10,609 nt of DNA from a virus. Location: the UHGV virus genome UHGV-0223590. One strand, 5' to 3'. The stretch's first letter is position 1; each line of letters opens with the position of its first letter. The notes under the pieces are model-generated. The model had not been told where the DNA came from. It ran no database searches and saw only the letters and a program-made list of their open reading frames with translations. Positions 1 through 9,915 of this stretch are shown here, one piece after another. The translations under genes were made by a program, and so were the position numbers.

Positions 1-119
1 GGTGGGTGTTAGGGGCACCCACCAGCCATCTGCTCATGCGTTGGGTTCACAAGCAAACCTCAGGCCCACTGCTTTGCGCAAAAGCAGAATGAGCCTATCA
101 GAGACAGGCTTAATGATCC

Positions 120-1169
120 ATGCTTAATACTGTAAAAATATCCAGTTGTGAGTTAATCAACGCCGACTGCCTGGAATTTATCCGGTCGTTACCCGAAAAT
201 TCTGTTGACCTGATAGTCACGGACCCGCCGTACTTTAAAGTGAAGCCTGAGGGCTGGGATAACCAGTGGAAGGGCGACGATGATTACCTGAAGTGGCTGG
301 ACCAGTGTCTGGCGCAGTTCTGGCGGGTGCTGAAACCTGCCGGAAGTCTTTACCTGTTCTGTGGTCATCGCCTGGCATCTGATATCGAAATCATGATGCG
401 TGAACGCTTCAGTGTGCTGAACCATATTATCTGGGCGAAGCCGTCCGGACGCTGGAACGGATGCAACAAGGAAAGCCTGCGGGCGTATTTCCCCGCCACA
501 GAGCGCATTCTGTTCGCGGAACATTATCAGGGGCCGTATCGTCCGAAAGATGCCGGGTATGCGGCGAAGGGCAGTGCACTGAAACAGCATGTGATGGCCC
601 CGCTGATTTCTTACTTTCGTGATGCGCGCGCGGCCCTGGGGATAACGGCAAAACAGATTGCAGATGCCACAGGAAAGAAAAACATGGTGTCGCACTGGTT
701 CAGTGCCAGTCAGTGGCAGCTACCGAACGAAAGCGATTATCTGAAATTACAGTCGCTGTTTGCCCGGGTGGCAGAAGAGAAACATCAGCGCGGTGAACTG
801 GAAAAGCCCCACCACCAGCTGGTGGATACGTATACGTCACTGAACCGGCAGTATGTGGAGCTGCAGAGTGAATATAAGCATCTGCGGCGGTATTTTGGTG
901 TGACGGCGCAGGTGCCGTACACGGATGTGTGGACACATAAACCGGTGCAGTTCTATCCCGGGAAACATCCGTGCGAAAAACCGGCAGAAATGCTGCAGCA
1001 GATAATCAGCGCAAGCAGTCGTCCGGGTGACCTGGTTGCAGATTTTTTTATGGGCTCAGGTTCAACGGTAAAAGCGGCACTGGCGCTCGGGCGTCGTGCG
1101 ATTGGCGTTGAACTGGAGACCGGACGTTTTGAGCAGACAGTCAGGGAAGTTCAGGATTTAATCGTTTGA
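120..1169 (+). CDS. DNA methyltransferase, beta-class (N6-adenine or N4-cytosine), phage-type orphan
   Basis: 349-aa ORF. DPPY (motif IV) near the N-terminus in ...LIVTDPPYF..., and F-x-G-S-G-S-T (motif I, AdoMet binding) near the C-terminus in ...DFFMGSGSTV.... The IV-before-I order is typical of beta-class amino-MTases. The ORF starts right after an in-frame stop at 114-116, so 120 is the only ATG start. Confidence 0.85.
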   Translation: MLNTVKISSCELINADCLEFIRSLPENSVDLIVTDPPYFKVKPEGWDNQWKGDDDYLKWLDQCLAQFWRVLKPAGSLYLFCGHRLASDIEIMMRERFSVLNHIIWAKPSGRWNGCNKESLRAYFPATERILFAEHYQGPYRPKDAGYAAKGSALKQHVMAPLISYFRDARAALGITAKQIADATGKKNMVSHWFSASQWQLPNESDYLKLQSLFARVAEEKHQRGELEKPHHQLVDTYTSLNRQYVELQSEYKHLRRYFGVTAQVPYTDVWTHKPVQFYPGKHPCEKPAEMLQQIISASSRPGDLVADFFMGSGSTVKAALALGRRAIGVELETGRFEQTVREVQDLIV

Positions 1170-1218
1170 AACGGATGAGATTGCAGAATTAATTACGCAC
1201 CATTATTATTCTGCTCCC

Positions 1219-1294
1219 GGCCCTTTAGCTCAGTGGTGAGAGCGAGCGACTCATAATCGCCAGGTCGCTGGTTCAAATCCAGCAAGGGCCACCA
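1219..1294 (+). tRNA. ileZ: tRNA-Ile2 (anticodon CAU, ileX/ileZ-like; formally Met by anticodon alone)
   Basis: 76 nt, GGCCCTTTAGCTCAGTGGTGAGAGCGAGCGACTCATAATCGCCAGGTCGCTGGTTCAAATCCAGCAAGGGCCACCA. Cloverleaf folds by hand: 7-bp acceptor stem GGCCCTT/AAGGGCC, anticodon loop ctCATaa, T-loop TTCAAAT, encoded CCA. Closely resembles E. coli ileX as I recall it. Gene symbol is by analogy to the ileZ-argN-argO array of Stx phages. Confidence 0.85.
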
Positions 1295-1303
1295 TATCAC
1301 ATA

Positions 1304-1380
1304 CCACCATTAGCTCATCGGGATAGAGCGCCAGCCTTCGAAGCTGGTTGCGCGGGGTTCGAGTTCTCGATGGCGGTCCA
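1304..1380 (+). tRNA. tRNA-Arg (anticodon UCG)
   Basis: 77 nt. D-stem GCTC/GAGC, perfect anticodon stem CCAGC/GCTGG, anticodon loop ctTCGaa, T-loop TTCGAGT, encoded CCA. The acceptor stem has one A-C mismatch and the T-stem has G-U pairs; the 5' boundary is +/- 2 nt. Confidence 0.7.
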
Positions 1381-1394
1381 TTTATCGGTATTCT

Positions 1395-1468
1395 GCGTTG
1401 TTAGCTCAGCCGGACAGAGCAATTGCCTTCTAAGCAGCTGTGGTTGCACTCCTGTTGTTTCTGGTGGT
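1395..1468 (+). pseudogene. Degenerate tRNA-Arg(UCU)-like sequence (argU-like 5' half, broken T-arm and acceptor 3' strand)
   Basis: GCGTTGTTAGCTCAGCCGGACAGAGCAATTGCCTTCTAAGCAGC gives acceptor 5' strand, D-arm and an anticodon arm with loop ctTCTaa (anticodon UCU). Downstream there is no T-stem (GGTTGCACTCCTG instead of GGTTCGAATCC with pairing flanks) and no complement to GCGTTGT. The 3' end is approximate. Confidence 0.4.
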
Positions 1469-1614
1469 GATGGTGGACTTCAGCAGCCGGATAATGTCGG
1501 TGCTGTCTGATGGTGTTTTGGTGGCGGGTGTGTGGTTGTTGCTTTCCCGTTGCTGAAAAAGAAAGCATCAGGCGATTAGCAGGGTATCAGTTACCCGTTG
1601 AAATTTTTAAATAC

Positions 1615-1834
1615 CTCACAATTCCACAGCTTGATGATTGTCTGGCTGCCGGAGAATTTGTTAAAAATTACATCGCATGGTGAATCCCCCTCAGCGGCGG
1701 GGCATCTGGCAAAGTGTATGATCCAGAGAACATGCAAATTCAGTAGACAGGCTGAATTTACCGGGAGTCCCCTGGCACCATGCGACAGACAGAAATTAGG
1801 CTATACTTCAGCCCCTCTCCGGAGGGGCTTTTCT
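1615..1834 (+). repeat. Repeat copy A (~220 bp), ends in terminator-like hairpin
   Basis: Aligns by eye with 2083-2301 over its length. Shared blocks include TTGTCTGGC, GTTAAAAA(T)T, GCATGGTGAATCCCCCT, a CCCCT-N6-AGGGG hairpin, CACCGGGAG, GGCACCATGC and the terminal AGCCCCTCTCCGGAGGGGCT. Confidence 0.6.
1810..1834 (+). terminator. Putative intrinsic terminator (8-bp GC-rich stem, 4-nt loop, TTTCT tail)
   Basis: AGCCCCTC/TCCG/GAGGGGCT is a perfect hairpin followed by TTTCT on the + strand. There is no U-run on the opposite strand. Confidence 0.5.
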
Positions 1835-2082
1835 GTGCAGGATGTGTCACAGTTTCCTGAATTCTGAGTACTGTCCTGTTACTCAGGGTGCTATATTTTC
1901 TGACGTGATGAAAGTCTGCCGGAAGGCGGAACGTATCGGAAATGACCCAGTAGAGAAAACGTTGACTCAGATACCGATGCTGAGTTACCGGGAAACCGGC
2001 ATCACATGACCGCTATCCTTCCAGGCTCGCTCCGGCGGGCCTTTTTACTGCAGAAAACAGTTTTCCCGTAAAATGCCACGTT

Positions 2083-2301: not shown

Positions 2302-2907
2302 GATTTTGTCAGATGTGAGTAAACTCCTTATGGACTTTGTTGTTTTAGCCCATAAGGACATATTTGCAGAGTGCAACGGTTATTAAAGCATTCATTCAAT
2401 ACGTTATCTGTATTTGTAGGGCATTCCTGGCTGTTTTTGATTAAATTCCAGAATGTTTTATTGAATGGTACTACGTTGTAAATGGTTACAGGTAGCACTT
2501 TGTTATTGAGCATGATGCCTGTGTGAGTCAGTGTAAATATACTTTCAGGAGGTAAGAAAGCATCCGATTGATACCAGATTATTAATTTTATTTTACTCCA
2601 TATGACTGAAAAAGATATTCCGCATGATGGCTGGATAACTGTATCAATCACAATCCACTTCATTTAGTTTCCTTGTTTATGCCTTGCTGGTGATGTTCTG
2701 AAAAGTATAAATGATATTTTTGAATTAAACCATAGAGCAGAATTATTTTTCTGATGTTGTTTATTGTTTATTTAAATGCAGGGTGGTTTATATCTCGTCT
2801 TGTAGTTTATCCATGCATATCTGCTTGATGATGAGGTTTTTATTTAAGGTATGGTTTTGTGTTTTTTCTGTATTACATGTCAGGTATTTTAAAGAATCAT
2901 TTTTCAG

Positions 2908-4401
2908 ATGGTGGAAAGAACCATGGCATTTAAACACTATGATGTTGTCAGGGCGGCGTCGCCGTCAGATCTTGCGGAAAAGCTGACACATAAACTGAAA
3001 GAGGGCTGGCAGCCGTTTGGTAGTCCGGTGGCCATAACCCCTTATACCCTGATGCAGGCGATTGCAGCAGAAGGTGATGTGGTCGTCAGTGGTGCAACTG
3101 AGCCGGAGTGGTACTACGTCATCGTACTGGCCGGGCAATCCAATGCCATGGCTTACGGTGAAGGGCTTCCGCTTCCGGATTCATACGATGCGCCCCATCC
3201 GCGCATTAAGCAACTGGCCCGTCGTAACACAGTGACTCCCGGTGGTGAAGTATGCGTATTTAACGACATCATTCCTGCTGACCATTGTCTGCATGATGTT
3301 CAGGATATGAGTACGATTAATCATCCCCGGGCTGACCTGAGCAAAGGGCAGTACGGCTGTGTCGGACAGGGCTTACATATTGCCAAAAAACTGCTTCCGT
3401 ATATCCCTAATAACGCGGGGATCCTGCTGGTACCATGCTGTCGTGGTGGTTCGGCATTCACCCAGGGCACGGAGGGGACATTCAGCGAGTCCACGGGGGC
3501 CAGTCAGGATTCGGCTCGCTGGGGAGTGGGTAAGCCGTTATATCAGGATCTGCTTTTCCGCACGAAGGCAGCATTGCAGAAAAACCCGAAAAACGTTTTG
3601 CTGGCGATATGCTGGATGCAGGGGGAATTCGATATGACGAATGCCAGTTACGCCCAGCAGCCAGCAGCATTTCTTGCAATGGTACAGCAGTTCCGTGCTG
3701 ACCTTGCCGGGCTGGCGGCGCAGTGTCACGGTGGAAGTCCGGCATCAGTCCCCTGGATTTGTGGCGACACGACATACGCGTGGAAACAAGAACACGGTAC
3801 GCAATATGAAGTGGTATATGGTGCATATAAAGGTAAAGAATCCCAGCAGATTTATTTTGTTCCCTTTATGACCGATGGTAGCGGAGTTAATACACCGACA
3901 AACAACCCGTCAGAAGATCCTGATATTGCCGGGTCTGGTTATTACGGTTCGGCATCCCGAACGAACAAAAACTGGGTATCATCAAATCGCCCGACGCATT
4001 TCAGCTCATGGGCGCGTCGTGGCATTATTCCCGATCGTATGGCAACTGCTATTCTGAACGTAGCCGGTCGCACCTTAGCCTTCATTAGTGGTAAGGCACC
4101 GGAAATCAAACCCTCGCCCGGCGGCGACACGCCATCGGGGCCGTCTGAAGATGCATCCGTACGCACAATCTCCCTGTTGCCGACAGCCGGAGATGCTGCT
4201 GCGCAGGGCTGGAGCATTAAGAATGGCGGAATTCAGTTGTCAGATGGTGTATTTAAGATCACCAAGCAGAGCAATAAAACCTGGTCCCTGATGCATCCGG
4301 TGGATGACGCAGTCTCCCTGCTGACACGGGGTGGCAGACTGAGCTGTAAGTTTCGACTGTCAGGCGCACTGACCAACAACCAGTTCGGTCTGGGAATTTA
4401 G
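2908..4401 (+). CDS. nanS-p: Prophage-encoded NanS-p-like sialate O-acetylesterase (DUF1737-like N-terminal domain + SGNH/DUF303 esterase)
   Basis: 497-aa ORF. The N-terminus (MAFKHYDVVRAASPSDLAEKLTHKLKEGWQPFGSP...) matches the small DUF1737-type domain typical of these phage proteins. An SGNH block-I-like GQSNAMAYGEG follows. Sitting downstream of the late-region tRNA array is the canonical nanS-p position in Stx/lambdoid prophages. An alternative start at ATG 2923 (MAFKHYDV) is plausible. Confidence 0.8.
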   Translation: MVERTMAFKHYDVVRAASPSDLAEKLTHKLKEGWQPFGSPVAITPYTLMQAIAAEGDVVVSGATEPEWYYVIVLAGQSNAMAYGEGLPLPDSYDAPHPRIKQLARRNTVTPGGEVCVFNDIIPADHCLHDVQDMSTINHPRADLSKGQYGCVGQGLHIAKKLLPYIPNNAGILLVPCCRGGSAFTQGTEGTFSESTGASQDSARWGVGKPLYQDLLFRTKAALQKNPKNVLLAICWMQGEFDMTNASYAQQPAAFLAMVQQFRADLAGLAAQCHGGSPASVPWICGDTTYAWKQEHGTQYEVVYGAYKGKESQQIYFVPFMTDGSGVNTPTNNPSEDPDIAGSGYYGSASRTNKNWVSSNRPTHFSSWARRGIIPDRMATAILNVAGRTLAFISGKAPEIKPSPGGDTPSGPSEDASVRTISLLPTAGDAAAQGWSIKNGGIQLSDGVFKITKQSNKTWSLMHPVDDAVSLLTRGGRLSCKFRLSGALTNNQFGLGI

Positions 4402-4667: not shown

Positions 4668-5288
4668 ATGAAAGATCAAGATGTTAGGTTCGCGGTGCAT
4701 CATAAGCTTTTGAAAGAATCGCATTTAGATCCAGACTGCCTTGTGGTCGATGAATTTTCCATATCCCTTGGCGCCAGTAGAGCAGACATTGCTGTAATAA
4801 ATGGTGTTATACACGGGTACGAGCTCAAAAGTGAATATGACTCTTTGGAGCGTTTGCCTCTTCAAATCAAGCATTATTCTTCTGTAATGGACAAGGTTAC
4901 TCTTGTCGTAGCTGAGAAACACCTTGAGGGAGCATTAAAGTTAATTCCAGGTTGGTGGGGCGTTAAAACGGTTTCTGTTGGGCCAAAAGGCGCCATTCTT
5001 ATAAAGCACATGCGTGGAGAAAAGCTTAATCGAAACCATGACACATTGATGCTCGCTCAATTGCTTTGGAAAGATGAATGTATCGACGTACTTGAACGAT
5101 GGGGCTATTCCAAAGGAATCAAAAGCAAGCCCCGATTTGAGTTATGGAATATTATTGCGGAAAATATTCCAATAGCGAATCTCAGGCTTGAAGTCAGAAC
5201 AGCCTTAAAGAAACGCGTAGGCTGGAAAGTTAAGGCTTGGCAGGCTGAGTCTGCGCCAACCAATAAAGCTGTCTCACGACTAACGTAA
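4668..5288 (+). CDS. Hypothetical protein, 206 aa, with PD-(D/E)xK-like motif arrangement (putative nuclease)
   Basis: ORF with strong SD (AAGGAG, 7-nt spacer) and an upstream TATAAT. Carries ...VVDEFSI...SRADIAVING..HGYELKSEYD..., i.e. E29, D39, E52-x-K54 spaced like a restriction-endonuclease-fold core. Lies in AT-rich DNA unlike the flanking phage genes. Confidence 0.65.
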   Translation: MKDQDVRFAVHHKLLKESHLDPDCLVVDEFSISLGASRADIAVINGVIHGYELKSEYDSLERLPLQIKHYSSVMDKVTLVVAEKHLEGALKLIPGWWGVKTVSVGPKGAILIKHMRGEKLNRNHDTLMLAQLLWKDECIDVLERWGYSKGIKSKPRFELWNIIAENIPIANLRLEVRTALKKRVGWKVKAWQAESAPTNKAVSRLT

Positions 5289-6297
5289 TATGGTGCGTAT
5301 GTGCAACTTTACGCCATTCTTTAGAGCCGCCAGATTTGTTAGCGCCTAATGATCTTTGGTAAATGTAATCATCCCCCCAACTAAATTTGGAGCCAAAGAC
5401 TTGATACTCTGGCGAACTAACAAGGGTAGTACATAAGTTTTTAGTTTGGCCCCATCCATTTCCTTTAACTGCGGTACCTTTTACAAAGATCCATGAGGTA
5501 TCGTTCGAATATCTCACTGAGACATACTGAGACATGAAGCGTGGGTCTACGCTCGTAATGGTAGAGCTAGCGGTGGGATAATCACTAAAACTTGGCGTTC
5601 TTCCATTGCTAAAATTCTGTACTACGTACATCCAAAGATCGTATTCATGGCGCGGAATATGATGAACTTGATGTTGCGGTATCCCTGCCTGTGATGCCGG
5701 GTATGCGGTTGAAGATAAAATCAAGTTTCTCCACGGAGCTTGGCCTGATAATGTGTTGACCATGCTTAATGCTTGTTGTTTTAAACTATCAGTTGCGTTT
5801 TGAATATCTCCAAAATCAATGATTACATCAATTAAACTAGGATGAATATTTAAGTGGTTAACCAGACTTGTGAATTGGTGCCATGTCTGGGGGGTGATAG
5901 ATATAGCGAGCCCATTGATTAAGTTGCGTTGAACAGCATGTATATAGTTTGTTGAATATGCGGGAGAAACAACAGGGATAATTTCCTTACCATTTACTCT
6001 AGCATCTTGGATACACATATCTAGAGGATGATGGCGGCTCGAACCATGTTTATCTAAATATTTAACATCCAGCAAAACAGGACGATTGGCTTTCCAGGAT
6101 GCCGCAAGGTTAATACCGAAGTCAGATAAGTAAGAACTCAAACTCTTCTTGTAGCATTCGTTTTCATAATCCCAGTCTATGTCTGGAATGGTAATGATCG
6201 GAGTAAAACCAGAGAGCGTAGTTTGATCTAAAAGCATCAGAGATTCATATTCAGCAGGCTTCCATTTCAGCTGTGGATAATATTGATGTTGACTCAT
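5230..6297 (-). CDS. Hypothetical protein, 355 aa, partner of the 206-aa gene (convergent, 59-bp 3' overlap)
   Basis: Long minus-strand ORF with a strong SD (AAGGAG, 6 nt before ATG, seen as CTCCTT at 6303-6308 on +). AT-rich like its partner. No catalytic motif I can assign by eye. Confidence 0.65.
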   Translation of the reverse strand: MSQHQYYPQLKWKPAEYESLMLLDQTTLSGFTPIITIPDIDWDYENECYKKSLSSYLSDFGINLAASWKANRPVLLDVKYLDKHGSSRHHPLDMCIQDARVNGKEIIPVVSPAYSTNYIHAVQRNLINGLAISITPQTWHQFTSLVNHLNIHPSLIDVIIDFGDIQNATDSLKQQALSMVNTLSGQAPWRNLILSSTAYPASQAGIPQHQVHHIPRHEYDLWMYVVQNFSNGRTPSFSDYPTASSTITSVDPRFMSQYVSVRYSNDTSWIFVKGTAVKGNGWGQTKNLCTTLVSSPEYQVFGSKFSWGDDYIYQRSLGANKSGGSKEWRKVAHTHHITLVVRQLYWLAQTQPAKP

Positions 6298-6520: not shown

Positions 6521-6532
6521 GGGCGGCGACCT
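6521..6532 (+). other. cos: cosN (lambda-type cohesive end site, GGGCGGCGACCT)
   Basis: Exact match to the lambda 12-nt cohesive end. The preceding CTTTCCGGTGATCC...GTTACG resembles the lambda right end, and the following CTCGCGG(T)TTTTC(A)CTATTTATGAAAATTTT matches the lambda left end almost base for base. Distance to the Nu1 start (187 nt) is close to lambda's. Confidence 0.9.
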
Positions 6533-9346: not shown

Positions 9347-9915
9347 AACGAACGCCTGTCCTGATTGATGTGAACGGCGTTCCGCTTCGGGAGAGCCTCA
9401 GCTACAACGGTGGCGGTGCAGGATTTGGCGGGCAAATGGCAGAGTGGTTGCCACCCTCGCAGAGTGCCGATGCGGCCCTGCTGCCCGCGTTGCGTCTGGG
9501 GAATGCCCGTGCAGATGATCTGGTGCGCAATAACGGAATAGCGGCCAATGCGGTGGCCCTGCATAAGGATCACATTGTCGGGCATATGTTTCTGATTAGC
9601 TACCGTCCGAACTGGCGCTGGCTGGGGATGCGGGAGACCGCGGCAAAAAGTTTTGTCGATGAGGTGGAGGCGGCCTGGTCAGAATACGCAGAAGGGATGT
9701 TTGGTGAGATCGACGTGGAAGGGAAACGCACGTTTACGGAATTTATCCGTGAAGGTGTGGGCGTTCATGCGTTTAACGGCGAAATCTTTGTGCAGCCGGT
9801 CTGGGATACGGAGAGTACGCAACTGTTTCGTACGCGTTTTAAAGCCGTGAGTCCGAAACGGGTGGACACGCCAGGACACGGTAGCTGCCAGTATCAATAT
9901 CAAGCCGGGCCATGA
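9343..9915 (+). pseudogene. B: Portal protein gene B, truncated (N-terminal ~180 codons only)
   Basis: MKRTPVLIDVNGVPLRESLSYNGGGAGFGGQMAEWLPP...[15 protein letters not shown] is near-identical to the lambda gpB N-terminus. Homology stops at about 9882 and the ORF ends 11 codons later ([10 protein letters not shown]). Lambda gpB is over 500 aa. Confidence 0.85.

What the first reader, a model, noticed from the sequence alone, without database searches (positions are those of the whole stretch)
812..825. Palindromic double Chi (CCACCAGCTGGTGG) inside the methyltransferase gene
The 14-bp perfect palindrome contains the E. coli Chi octamer GCTGGTGG on both strands (plus strand 818-825, minus strand 812-819), with a second minus-strand Chi at 19-26. 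Any effect on RecBCD processing of the linear phage end is speculative.
Basis: seen in the sequence. Interest (0 to 1): 0.2.

Follow-up and report, generated by a model that had tools for sequence, protein, structure and literature searches.

The report
Overlapping Chi pair in prophage methylase
Two back-to-back copies of the E. coli recombination signal Chi really do overlap inside a prophage DNA-methylase gene, but the pairing looks like a by-product of how a conserved peptide is encoded, and only the copy that faces the phage's right end fits an already described use of Chi by lambda-like phages.

Summary
CCACCAGCTGGTGG lies at 812-825, with Chi on the + strand at 818-825 and on the - strand at 812-819 and 19-26.

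Chi density is not above the host. The window has 3 Chi in 10.6 kb, where about 2.3 are expected at E. coli density. The intact reference prophage has 12 in 50.3 kb.

The palindrome is codons 230-236 (P-H-H-Q-L-V-D) of a 349-aa orphan adenine methylase of the M.EcoGI/GII type. It sits in the late operon of a lambda-like prophage, 5.7 kb left of cosN (6521).

The top-strand Chi has the orientation that RecBCD recognises when it enters at the right cos end. It is orthologous to one of the 20 active-orientation Chi sites of phage LLS, a described Chi-dependent lambdoid phage. It is kept across species far more often than codon usage predicts.

The bottom-strand Chi shows no such excess. Synonymous changes remove it in LLS and in many other relatives.

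The Chi at 19-26 is the 3' arm of a conserved hairpin whose 5' arm carries another top-strand Chi.

This copy of the prophage has lost its lysis and head-tail genes, so here the sites can act only as chromosomal Chi. This is an ordinary member of a known phenomenon.

The parts
812..825 (.). 14-bp perfect palindrome CCACCAGCTGGTGG, made of two overlapping, opposed Chi octamers with a central CAGCTG
   Evidence: Read directly. It is the only perfect palindrome of 12 bp or more in the window.
818..825 (+). Top-strand Chi, 5'-GCTGGTGG-3', read as (CA)G CTG GTG G(AT) = Q233-L234-V235-D236. This orientation is recognised by RecBCD travelling leftward from the right cos end.
   Evidence: Orientation relative to cosN at 6521, with the orientation rule from PMC12315714. 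Orthologous Chi at LLS 40138. Present in 25 of 33 species-level homologues, against 10% expected from codon usage.
812..819 (-). Bottom-strand Chi. The top strand reads CCACCAGC = (CC)C CAC CAG C.., codons P230/H231-H232-Q233-L234. It would be recognised by RecBCD travelling rightward.
   Evidence: Lost by CAC>CAT or CAG>CAA in LLS and many relatives. Its 8-mer conservation ranks 150 of 1040.
19..26 (-). Bottom-strand Chi that forms the 3' arm of a conserved hairpin in the leader of the methylase gene
   Evidence: Hairpin fold -33.7 kcal/mol, z = -4.8. Arm variants.
1..33 (+). Right part of the leader hairpin: end of the 5' arm (GGTGGGTG), the loop, and the 3' arm. In the reference the 5' arm starts 10 nt before the window and carries a + strand Chi (L001 19998-20005 = window -2..5).
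120..1169 (+). Orphan beta-class N6-adenine DNA methyltransferase gene (349 aa) of the M.EcoGI/M.EcoGII type, lying between antiterminator Q and the phage tRNA genes
   Evidence: PF01555 at E = 2e-44. DPPY followed by FMGSG in the translation. 95.5% nucleotide identity to the phage 1720a-02 methylase, which PMC5778455 names as very similar to the 349-aa M.EcoGII. Synteny.
6521..6532 (+). cosN cohesive-end sequence GGGCGGCGACCT, which would be the right or left end of the packaged genome. It lies 5.7 kb right of the palindrome.
   Evidence: Exact match to the sequence I recall as the lambda cohesive end (own knowledge). It lies just upstream of the Nu1 and gpA terminase genes.
4398..4400 (.). 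Junction of a 2,276-bp deletion relative to the intact reference. The deletion removes the esterase C-terminus, holin, lysozyme and spanin, plus one top-strand Chi in the lysozyme gene.
9882..9884 (.). Junction of a deletion of about 15.0 kb that fuses the portal gene to tail gene J

Best explanation
The palindrome is not a functional unit. It is an ordinary top-strand Chi site that happens to sit next to codons whose complement spells a second Chi in the opposite direction.

The top-strand Chi (818-825) lies in the codons CAG-CTG-GTG-G of a conserved peptide, PHHQLV, in a prophage adenine-methylase gene.

In intact relatives this Chi belongs to a set of Chi sites confined to the right arm of the phage genome. 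These phages lack a RecBCD inhibitor. When RecBCD enters the DNA at the free right cos end, or at a rolling-circle tail, it unwinds and degrades leftward. On meeting 5'-GCTGGTGG-3' from its 3' side it switches to loading RecA. That spares the genome and promotes the recombination that yields packageable concatemers.

The bottom-strand Chi (812-819) exists because the two preceding histidine codons are CAC CAC, followed by CAG C. It would work for RecBCD coming from the left, but it shows no sign of being kept for that reason.

The bottom-strand Chi at 19-26 is simply the complementary arm of a conserved leader hairpin. The other arm of that hairpin carries a top-strand Chi.

The window's own prophage is a deletion remnant that cannot lyse or package. 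All three sites there can act only as normal chromosomal Chi sites during double-strand-break repair.

Shown here: the sequence, reading frame, orientation relative to cos, orthology, conservation statistics and the defectiveness of this copy. Inferred: Chi activity, and selection on the top-strand site.
For: 1. Frame and peptide.

2. Given the protein and the gene's own codon usage, a sense-strand Chi arises in 43% of synonymous shuffles. The antisense Chi arises in 4.4% and the palindrome in 2.5%.

3. Orientation. cosN is at 6521, to the right of the site, and the methylase is on the same strand as the terminase genes, as in LLS. The orientation rule and the right-end clustering are described in PMC12315714.

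4. Reference prophage. It has 12 Chi, 8 on the top strand and 4 on the bottom. All 12 lie in the right 46% of the virion map, and there are none in the 26-kb structural arm despite its higher G+C. If sites were spread evenly, all 12 would fall in that arm with P = 1.7e-4. Five of the 12 lie in 5.1 kb of non-coding DNA, where 1.1 would be expected at host density. Coding Chi number 7, against 2.2 in synonymous shuffles.

5. The early-left operon has only a DnaQ-like exonuclease next to xis. No Gam-like or annealing protein was detected.

6. LLS has top-strand Chi at both orthologous positions (40138 in the methylase gene, 39318 in the leader hairpin). Both opposite-strand partners are destroyed there.

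7. Across one-genome-per-species homologues with HHQLV, the top-strand Chi is present in 25 of 33, against 10% expected. Leu234-CTG and Val235-GTG are the most codon-conserved of the 16 Leu and 6 Val invariant columns. His231-CAC is average.

8. The Chi+ 8-mer ranks 19 of 1040 for conservation. The Chi- 8-mer ranks 150.

9. This copy is defective.
Against: - Among close relatives the top-strand Chi is lost more often than the bottom-strand one. In 183 unique genes, 133 keep the top Chi and 142 keep the bottom Chi. In the 80 nearest IMG/VR loci the figures are 46 and 72. Losses come through Val>Leu or GTG>GTC changes.
- Local synonymous diversity around the site is average in the close set.
- The cross-species excess is not corrected for shared ancestry. 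Other 8-mers with highly degenerate codons are equally conserved, for example at gene nt 349-362 and 892-894.
- In the reference strain the + strand is also the leading strand (GC skew +0.037; flank Chi 7 top, 2 bottom). Ordinary chromosomal Chi skew or amelioration of an old prophage could therefore give the same strand bias. PMC12315714 raises this same caveat for prophages.
- Whole-prophage density equals the host's.
- No experiment supports Chi activity at this site.
Confidence: 0.6

Rival explanations
1. Pure coincidence and hitch-hiking. Neither Chi is selected at this site. Both octamers follow from a conserved peptide (PHHQLV) written in common enterobacterial codons, and the 14-mer spreads by descent and recombination of the methylase gene.
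For: - The sense Chi is expected in 43% of synonymous shuffles of this gene.
- Window and prophage Chi densities equal the host's.
- A palindrome of 14 bp or more is expected 0.58 times per window.
- Many synonymous variants lacking one or both Chi exist: 31 codon configurations, 12 of them with no Chi.
- Local synonymous diversity is average.
- About three quarters of the 120 IMG/VR stretches that carry the 14-mer have it in an HHQLV reading frame, consistent with spread by descent.
Against: - The cross-species top-strand Chi is present in 76%, against 10% expected. Leu234 and Val235 are the most codon-conserved Leu and Val columns.
- The Chi 8-mer is in the top 2% for conservation.
- Right-arm confinement, and the excess of Chi in non-coding DNA of the reference prophage, cannot be explained by codon usage.
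Confidence: 0.27
2. A selected bidirectional hotspot. The palindrome, together with the inverted Chi pair in the leader hairpin 0.8 kb upstream, is kept because it stops RecBCD arriving from either side. It would protect rolling-circle tails of either polarity, or mark the edges of an exchangeable module and so drive mosaic exchange among lambdoid phages.
For: - Two inverted Chi pairs lie within 830 bp.
- Eight Chi of both orientations lie in 3.3 kb around the Q gene, where 0.7 are expected at host density.
- Three bottom-strand Chi lie in right-arm coding DNA, against 0.26 in synonymous shuffles.
- In otherwise more than 99% identical alleles, a hypervariable patch of about 100 nt starts within about 5-20 nt of the palindrome. 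Pairwise maximum-chi-square breakpoints peak at gene nt 633-704.
- The palindrome is present in 45% of species-level homologues, against 2.5% expected.
Against: - The bottom-strand halves are the ones that decay. LLS lacks both, and His231-CAC conservation is average.
- In most species the hairpin's 3' arm is bulged or changed, so Chi- is absent while the structure is kept.
- The breakpoint pairs are not independent and may represent two to four events.
- The patch coincides with the target-recognition region of the enzyme, where diversifying selection is a simpler cause.
- The cluster statistics are post hoc.
Confidence: 0.08
3. The palindrome is a protein-binding or enzyme target site, for example the embedded PvuII-type CAGCTG, an operator, or a site tied to the methylase's own action.
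For: - The sequence is a perfect dyad with a CAGCTG core.
- The gene family (PF01555) includes M.PvuII as a weak PDB match, E = 2.6e-7.
Against: - The enzyme has DPPY, the motif typical of adenine methylases.
- It belongs to the M.EcoGI/GII group, whose tested member M.EcoGII is non-specific (PMC5778455).
- The dyad is broken by synonymous or conservative changes in a third of relatives without any change in gene organisation.
- No partner restriction or regulator gene is adjacent.
Confidence: 0.03
4. The palindrome acts through nucleic-acid structure, either as a cruciform in DNA or as a hairpin in the late mRNA.
For: It is a perfect inverted repeat with no spacer.
Against: - The RNA fold of 790-850 is not unusual: -17.5 kcal/mol, z = -1.0, with 35 of 200 shuffles folding as well. 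The minimum-energy structure does not use the dyad as a hairpin.
- Seven-bp arms with no loop are too short for stable extrusion (established knowledge).
- Half-sites change independently.
Confidence: 0.02

Closest known systems
[quoted passage not shown]
   Same: Exact octamer 5'-GCTGGTGG-3'. It lies in an Escherichia prophage. Its commonest reading frame, G-CTG-GTG-G, uses the most frequent Leu codon. The top-strand copy is co-oriented with the local leading strand in the reference genome.
   Different: Two octamers overlap by two bases in opposite orientation, so a single 14-bp site is in principle readable from both directions. I found no paper that contains this 14-mer. Activity was not tested.
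Chi-rich lambdoid phages without a RecBCD inhibitor (phage LLS class; Zheng, Casjens, Davidson, Amundsen & Smith, Genome Res 2025, PMC12315714; earlier Bobay et al. 2013, PMC3784561)
   Same: - Lambda-like late region and cos.
- No Gam-like or annealing protein detected in the early-left operon of the intact reference.
- Chi sites confined to the right arm with a top-strand majority (8 top, 4 bottom).
- LLS carries a homologous methylase (76% amino-acid identity) with a Chi at the same codons, and the same leader hairpin with a Chi.
   Different: - Chi number is modest: 12 in 50 kb, equal to host density, against 23 in 43 kb for LLS.
- The strand bias is weaker (8:4 against 20:3).
- The element studied here is a prophage, and the window copy is a deletion remnant. 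The paper itself warns that prophages may acquire Chi like any other chromosomal DNA.
M.EcoGI / M.EcoGII, prophage-encoded beta-class N6-adenine DNA methyltransferases (Murray et al., NAR 2018, PMC5778455)
   Same: 349 aa. DPPY motif first and FxGxG last. Prophage late-region location. 95.5% nucleotide identity to the methylase of phage 1720a-02, which that paper lists as very similar.
   Different: I could not align the window protein directly to the published M.EcoGII sequence. Non-specific activity is not shown for this allele. The palindrome lies in the central target-recognition part, which is the most variable part of the family.

Membership tests
Enteric Chi site (RecBCD hotspot) | Exact sequence 5'-GCTGGTGG-3' | tested here: met
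   Three exact occurrences at 818-825 (+), 812-819 (-) and 19-26 (-).
Enteric Chi site (RecBCD hotspot) | Resides in a host whose RecBCD recognises this octamer (Escherichia and other enterics) | tested here: met
   Window bases 1-1400 are 99.9% identical to many E. coli chromosomes. Window bases 1-1766 are 99.9% identical to an E. albertii contig.
Enteric Chi site (RecBCD hotspot) | Orientation-dependent stimulation of RecBCD-RecA recombination, or attenuation of degradation | not testable with these tools
   Only orientation could be determined. The + site faces the right cos end, and the - sites face left.
Chi-using lambdoid phages lacking anti-RecBCD (LLS class) | Lambdoid genome organisation | tested here: met
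   Gene order is Q, methylase, tRNAs, lysis genes, cos, Nu1, gpA, portal, with a lambda-type cosN.
Chi-using lambdoid phages lacking anti-RecBCD (LLS class) | No RecBCD inhibitor and no Rec module in the early-left operon | tested here: inconclusive
   In the intact reference prophage Pfam finds only a DnaQ-like exonuclease, DUF1482, DicB and DUF1391. Unrecognised inhibitors cannot be excluded. The window itself does not contain this region.
Chi-using lambdoid phages lacking anti-RecBCD (LLS class) | Many top-strand Chi (the paper's benchmark: 4 or more, typically 8 or more) with few on the bottom strand | tested here: met
   The reference prophage has 8 top and 4 bottom, at the low end of the published range.
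Chi-using lambdoid phages lacking anti-RecBCD (LLS class) | Clustering of Chi toward the right end | tested here: met
   All 12 Chi lie at 0.54-0.94 of the virion map, with none in the 26-kb left arm.
Chi-using lambdoid phages lacking anti-RecBCD (LLS class) | Chi density above that of the host | tested here: not met
   The density is 1 per 4.2 kb over the whole prophage and 1 per 3.5 kb in the window, against 1 per 4.6 kb in K-12. Only the right arm exceeds the host, at 1 per 2.0 kb (P = 0.008).
Chi-using lambdoid phages lacking anti-RecBCD (LLS class) | Phage growth enhanced by host RecBCD | not testable with these tools
   This needs an experiment. The window copy cannot grow at all.
M.EcoGI/M.EcoGII-type beta-class adenine methyltransferase | N6_N4_Mtase domain with motif order DPPY ... 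FxGxG | tested here: met
   PF01555 at E = 2e-44. VTDPPY at residues 33-38 and FFMGSGST at residues 309-316.
M.EcoGI/M.EcoGII-type beta-class adenine methyltransferase | Close sequence relationship to the characterised enzymes | tested here: inconclusive
   The length is the same (349 aa). The gene is 95.5% identical at nucleotide level to the phage 1720a-02 gene, which the paper calls very similar. No direct alignment to M.EcoGII was possible.
M.EcoGI/M.EcoGII-type beta-class adenine methyltransferase | Sequence-non-specific adenine methylation | not testable with these tools
   This is a biochemical property.

The most novel reading that the evidence does not exclude
The two inverted Chi pairs are the leader hairpin at the window's left edge and the 14-bp palindrome at 812-825. 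They could be maintained as bidirectional RecBCD stop-and-load points that bracket an exchangeable segment of about 0.8 kb (the leader plus the catalytic half of the methylase gene). Chi would then help set module junctions in lambdoid phage mosaics. This would explain why a hypervariable patch, and several inferred recombination junctions in the methylase family, begin within a few to tens of bases of the palindrome.
Probability: 0.06. Interest if true: 0.5.

Novelty: new member of a known kind. Interest (0 to 1): 0.15.

Why it matters
It matters little. The result adds one concrete, orthologous example to the published picture that lambda-like phages without a RecBCD inhibitor carry Chi sites in their right arm, oriented toward the cos end. 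It also shows that an eye-catching 'double Chi' palindrome can arise from a conserved peptide written in preferred codons.

The conserved methylase codons and the conserved leader hairpin do give two fixed, alignable positions where gain and loss of Chi can be followed across many phages and species. That could serve as a small natural test of selection for Chi. If the module-boundary reading were true, it would link Chi to phage mosaicism.

Tried and rejected
- **Looking for the window's exact source.** No complete E. coli genome in the collection has the lysis deletion or the portal-J fusion; the best hits cover 89% of the query in two pieces. The 30-mer across the lysis-deletion junction is absent from the GTDB representative genomes. 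The truncated esterase protein is found only on one 2.4-kb metagenome contig. Whole-prophage counts therefore had to use an intact relative, NZ_CP029574.1.
- **Literature.** No paper in the library contains the 14-mer. The supplementary tables of PMC12315714 are not held, so I could not look up SfV, mEp460 or phiP27 in their Chi table.
- **RNA or DNA structure at the palindrome.** The fold is ordinary, z = -1.0. Rejected.
- **Rfam.** No family matches the leader hairpin; the only hit is a sub-threshold P26 match at E = 0.054.
- **PvuII-type or N4-cytosine methylase link to the central CAGCTG.** Rejected on the DPPY motif and the M.EcoGII relationship.
- **Special synonymous constraint around the site among close relatives.** None seen; codon entropy is 0.33 locally against a gene mean of 0.38.
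- **His-codon oddity.** Two of the gene's three CAC codons sit in the palindrome. This turned out to reflect position-specific codon states that are conserved at every His column of this closely related set.
- **Pairwise breakpoint scans.** They gave a peak next to the palindrome, but the pairs are not independent. The signal coincides with a hypervariable patch in the target-recognition region, so I do not count it as evidence of Chi action.
- **L059.** An apparent junction inside the hairpin turned out to be a rearranged draft contig containing an N.
- **RNAalifold on the hairpin.** Only three pairs show double changes, because indels in the 3' arm blur the alignment.
Full report
**1. The observation**

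The window reads ...AAAAGCCCCACCACCAGCTGGTGGATACG... The perfect 14-bp palindrome CCACCAGCTGGTGG lies at 812-825. A pattern search finds GCTGGTGG exactly three times: 818-825 on the + strand, and 812-819 and 19-26 on the - strand (confirmed). The coordinates in the finding are exact.

Dinucleotide-preserving shuffles of the window give 0.34 sites on average, and only 1 of 200 shuffles reaches three. Composition is the wrong yardstick, however, because Chi is over-represented throughout E. coli. K-12 has 1008 sites in 4.6 Mb, one per 4.6 kb (PMC12315714). At that density the window should hold 2.3 sites, and P(>=3) = 0.41.

A perfect palindrome of 14 bp or more is also unremarkable. Shuffled windows carry 0.58 on average; the real window has one. 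From the Chi frequency and an assumed GC-dinucleotide frequency, I estimate roughly 0.7 palindromic double Chi per E. coli genome by simple independence.

**2. What the surroundings are**

The window is the late region of a lambda-like prophage.

- ORF 120-1169 is a PF01555 DNA methylase.
- It is followed by two tRNA genes and a SASA-family esterase.
- Next comes an sce7726 / Beta-protein gene pair.
- The terminase genes Nu1 and gpA and a portal fragment follow.
- The lambda cohesive-end sequence GGGCGGCGACCT is at 6521-6532, just upstream of Nu1.

Window 1-1400 is 99.9% identical to many E. coli chromosomes. In strain DA33133 the region is part of a 50.3-kb prophage inserted at ompW, and I used this prophage as the intact reference (L001 plus L082). 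An E. albertii contig matches window 1-1766 at 99.9%.

Relative to the reference, the window lacks two segments:

- 2,276 bp covering the esterase C-terminus, holin, lysozyme and spanin; the junction is near 4398-4400.
- About 15.0 kb running from portal codon ~180 to the middle of tail gene J; the junction is at 9882-9884.

The copy in the window is therefore a remnant that can neither lyse cells nor build particles.

**3. The gene that holds the palindrome**

The 349-aa product has VTDPPY near its N-terminus and FFMGSGST near its C-terminus. This is the motif order of beta-class amino-methyltransferases. Its closest solved relatives are adenine methylases; M.PvuII is only a weak match.

The gene is 95.5% identical to the methylase of phage 1720a-02. 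Murray et al. name that enzyme as very similar to the 349-aa, prophage-borne, non-specific adenine methylase M.EcoGII (PMC5778455). I therefore regard it as an M.EcoGI/GII-type enzyme by inference, since no direct alignment to M.EcoGII was possible.

The gene order Q, small ORF, methylase, then tRNAs, stx or lysis genes recurs in 1720a-02, phiP27, SfV, mEp460, Hafnia phage yong2 and LLS.

In frame, the palindrome is (CC)C CAC CAC CAG CTG GTG G(AT) = P230 H231 H232 Q233 L234 V235 D236.

**4.

The reference prophage has 12 Chi in 50.3 kb, or 1 per 4.2 kb. This is indistinguishable from the host: 1 per 4.6 kb in K-12, and 9 in 35 kb of flanking chromosome.

The distribution, however, is very uneven.

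- All 12 sites lie between 0.54 and 0.94 of the virion map. None lies in the 26-kb head-tail arm, although that arm has the higher G+C.
- Eight sites are on the top strand.
- Five of the 12 lie in the 5.1 kb of non-coding right-arm DNA, where codon usage cannot be the cause.
- Coding Chi in the right arm number 7, against 2.2 in synonymous-codon shuffles.
- The early-left operon shows a DnaQ-like exonuclease next to xis, but no recognisable annealing protein or RecBCD inhibitor.

This matches what Zheng et al. (PMC12315714) describe. Lambdoid phages without an anti-RecBCD function carry many Chi, mostly on the top strand and clustered toward the right end, where RecBCD enters. Phage LLS grows better with RecBCD. 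Bobay et al. (PMC3784561) had seen the same trend in prophages.

There is a confound. In the reference strain the + strand is also the replication leading strand (GC skew +0.037; flank Chi 7 top and 2 bottom). Ordinary chromosomal Chi skew could therefore contribute to the strand bias, and Zheng et al. raise the same caveat for prophages.

**5. Orientation and orthology**

cos lies to the right of the methylase gene, and the gene is on the same strand as the terminase genes. The + strand Chi at 818-825 therefore has the orientation that is active for RecBCD entering at the right end. The two - strand sites face the other way.

LLS carries a homologue of this methylase (76% amino-acid identity) 2.4-3.4 kb from its right end. 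Among its 20 top-strand Chi sites, one (40138) sits at exactly the same codons. Another (39318) sits in the same leader hairpin as L001 19998. In LLS both opposite-strand partners are destroyed: CAT replaces CAC, and there is a one-base insertion in the hairpin's 3' arm.

**6.

I collected 183 unique methylase genes without regard to the palindrome. They came from three IMG/VR searches plus nine phage records. The peptide PHHQLV is almost invariant in this set.

| Feature | Genes with it (of 183) |
|---|---|
| Top-strand Chi | 133 |
| Bottom-strand Chi | 142 |
| Full palindrome | 115 |

There are 31 different codon configurations. Twelve of them have no Chi at all, produced by changes such as CAT, CAA, TTG, CTT-GTT, GTC or Val>Leu. 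Synonymous diversity around the site is average in the close set.

About three quarters of the 120 IMG/VR stretches that contain the 14-mer have it in an HHQLV reading frame, which points to spread by descent.

In a one-genome-per-species sample of Enterobacterales homologues (median pairwise nucleotide identity 72%), the results were as follows.

- The top-strand Chi is present in 25 of 33 genes with HHQLV. The product of each gene's own CAG, CTG and GTG usage predicts 10%.
- Leu234-CTG (88%) and Val235-GTG (91%) are the most codon-conserved of the 16 Leu and 6 Val invariant columns. His231-CAC (55%) is ordinary.
- The Chi+ 8-mer ranks 19th of 1040 windows for conservation. The Chi- 8-mer ranks 150th.

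These figures are not corrected for shared ancestry, and a few other 8-mers with degenerate codons are as conserved. I read them as suggestive evidence that the top-strand octamer is maintained, and as no evidence that the bottom-strand one or the dyad as such is maintained.

Given the protein and the gene's own codon usage, synonymous shuffles produce the sense Chi in 43% of trials, the antisense Chi in 4.4% and the palindrome in 2.5%.

**7. The second minus-strand Chi (19-26)**

This Chi is the 3' arm of a strong hairpin about 82 nt upstream of the methylase start codon: GGCGGCTGGTGGGTG-TTAGGGG-CACCCACCAGCC, at -33.7 kcal/mol with z = -4.8. Its 5' arm, which begins just outside the window, carries a top-strand Chi.

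The hairpin is present in nearly all relatives, including many enterobacterial genera. The 5' arm is almost invariant. The 3' arm changes in ways that keep RNA pairing (C>U giving G.U) or introduce a bulge. There are a few true compensatory changes in Rosenbergiella and Hafnia, where Chi is lost.

The hairpin has no U tract and matches no Rfam family. The minus-strand Chi at 19-26 is therefore a by-product of the stem.

**8. Mechanism**

The established steps are these. RecBCD binds a duplex end, unwinds and degrades. It recognises 5'-GCTGGTGG-3' on the 3'-ended strand when approaching from the octamer's 3' side, and then loads RecA on that strand.

In an intact phage of this type, the right cos end or a rolling-circle tail is the entry point. 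Top-strand Chi in the right arm would limit degradation and promote the recombination that yields concatemers for packaging (PMC12315714).

The 14-mer could in principle be read from both directions. I found no indication that this is used.

In the window's defective copy the sites can serve only in chromosomal break repair. RecBCD reads the GCTGGTGG strand, which contains no adenine. Methylation by the encoded enzyme should therefore not affect recognition; this is my inference.

**9. Rivals**

- Pure coincidence remains a serious alternative; I give it 0.27.
- A selected bidirectional hotspot or module boundary is kept alive by three observations: the local cluster of eight Chi of both orientations in 3.3 kb, the excess of bottom-strand coding Chi (3 against 0.26), and a hypervariable patch that starts at the palindrome with pairwise breakpoints peaking at gene nt 633-704. 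The pairs are not independent, the patch lies in the target-recognition region, and the bottom-strand halves are the ones that decay. I give it 0.08.
- Protein-binding and structural readings are poorly supported.

**10. Verdict**

The palindrome is best seen as one inherited, correctly oriented Chi of a known class of Chi-bearing lambdoid phages, plus an incidental mirror image. It sits in a prophage remnant where it no longer has a phage role. This is a new example of a known kind, and interest is low.

Noticed in passing
window 4398-4400 and 9882-9884: The prophage in the window is a deletion remnant. Relative to the intact prophage in NZ_CP029574.1 it lacks 2,276 bp (end of the esterase gene, holin, lysozyme, spanin) and about 15.0 kb (the portal gene fused to tail gene J). 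No complete E. coli genome in the collection, and no GTDB representative, has the lysis-deletion junction. One small metagenome contig does.
   Followed up: yes
window 1-33 (continues about 10 nt to the left of the window; L001 19991-20033): A very stable hairpin (-33.7 kcal/mol, z = -4.8) lies about 82 nt upstream of the methylase start codon. It is conserved across many enterobacterial genera. Its 5' arm is nearly invariant and contains a top-strand Chi. Its 3' arm drifts with G.U-compatible changes or a bulge, and there are a few compensatory changes. It has no U tract and no Rfam match, and its function is unknown.
   Followed up: partly
window 800-900 (gene nt ~688-790): In alleles that are otherwise more than 99% identical, a hypervariable patch of about 100 nt begins within about 5-20 nt of the palindrome. 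Pairwise maximum-chi-square breakpoints in the methylase family peak at gene nt 633-704. This could reflect recombination junctions or diversifying selection in the target-recognition region.
   Followed up: partly
L001 17519-20825 (window equivalent -2481 to 825): Eight Chi sites of both orientations lie within 3.3 kb around the Q antiterminator gene of the reference prophage, where 0.7 are expected at host density. Three of them are inside the DUF968 gene. Five of the prophage's 12 Chi are in non-coding DNA.
   Followed up: partly
window 1645-1838, 2114-2302 and (weak) 1874-2049: Two full-length copies and one weak copy of the sRNA family STnc100 (RF02076; 138, 132 and 30 bits) lie in tandem between the tRNA genes and iraM.
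   Followed up: no
window 1219-1440: The phage tRNA cluster has a CAU-anticodon tRNA, which ARAGORN calls Met and RefSeq annotates as Ile, followed by tRNA-Arg(UCG). After these comes what looks like the truncated 5' part of a third tRNA (~1394-1440), which is complete in Stx phages.
   Followed up: no
window 4668-6297: A convergent gene pair, sce7726-family (206 aa, +) and Beta protein PF14350 (355 aa, -), is inserted between the lysis region and cos. Its G+C looks lower than its surroundings. It may be an accessory or defence cargo.
   Followed up: no
window 2328-2663 (-): The reference genome annotates this ORF as the anti-adapter protein IraM. It has no Pfam hit at the default threshold in my scan, although a precomputed PmrD-family hit is listed for the same protein on a metagenome contig.
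   Followed up: no
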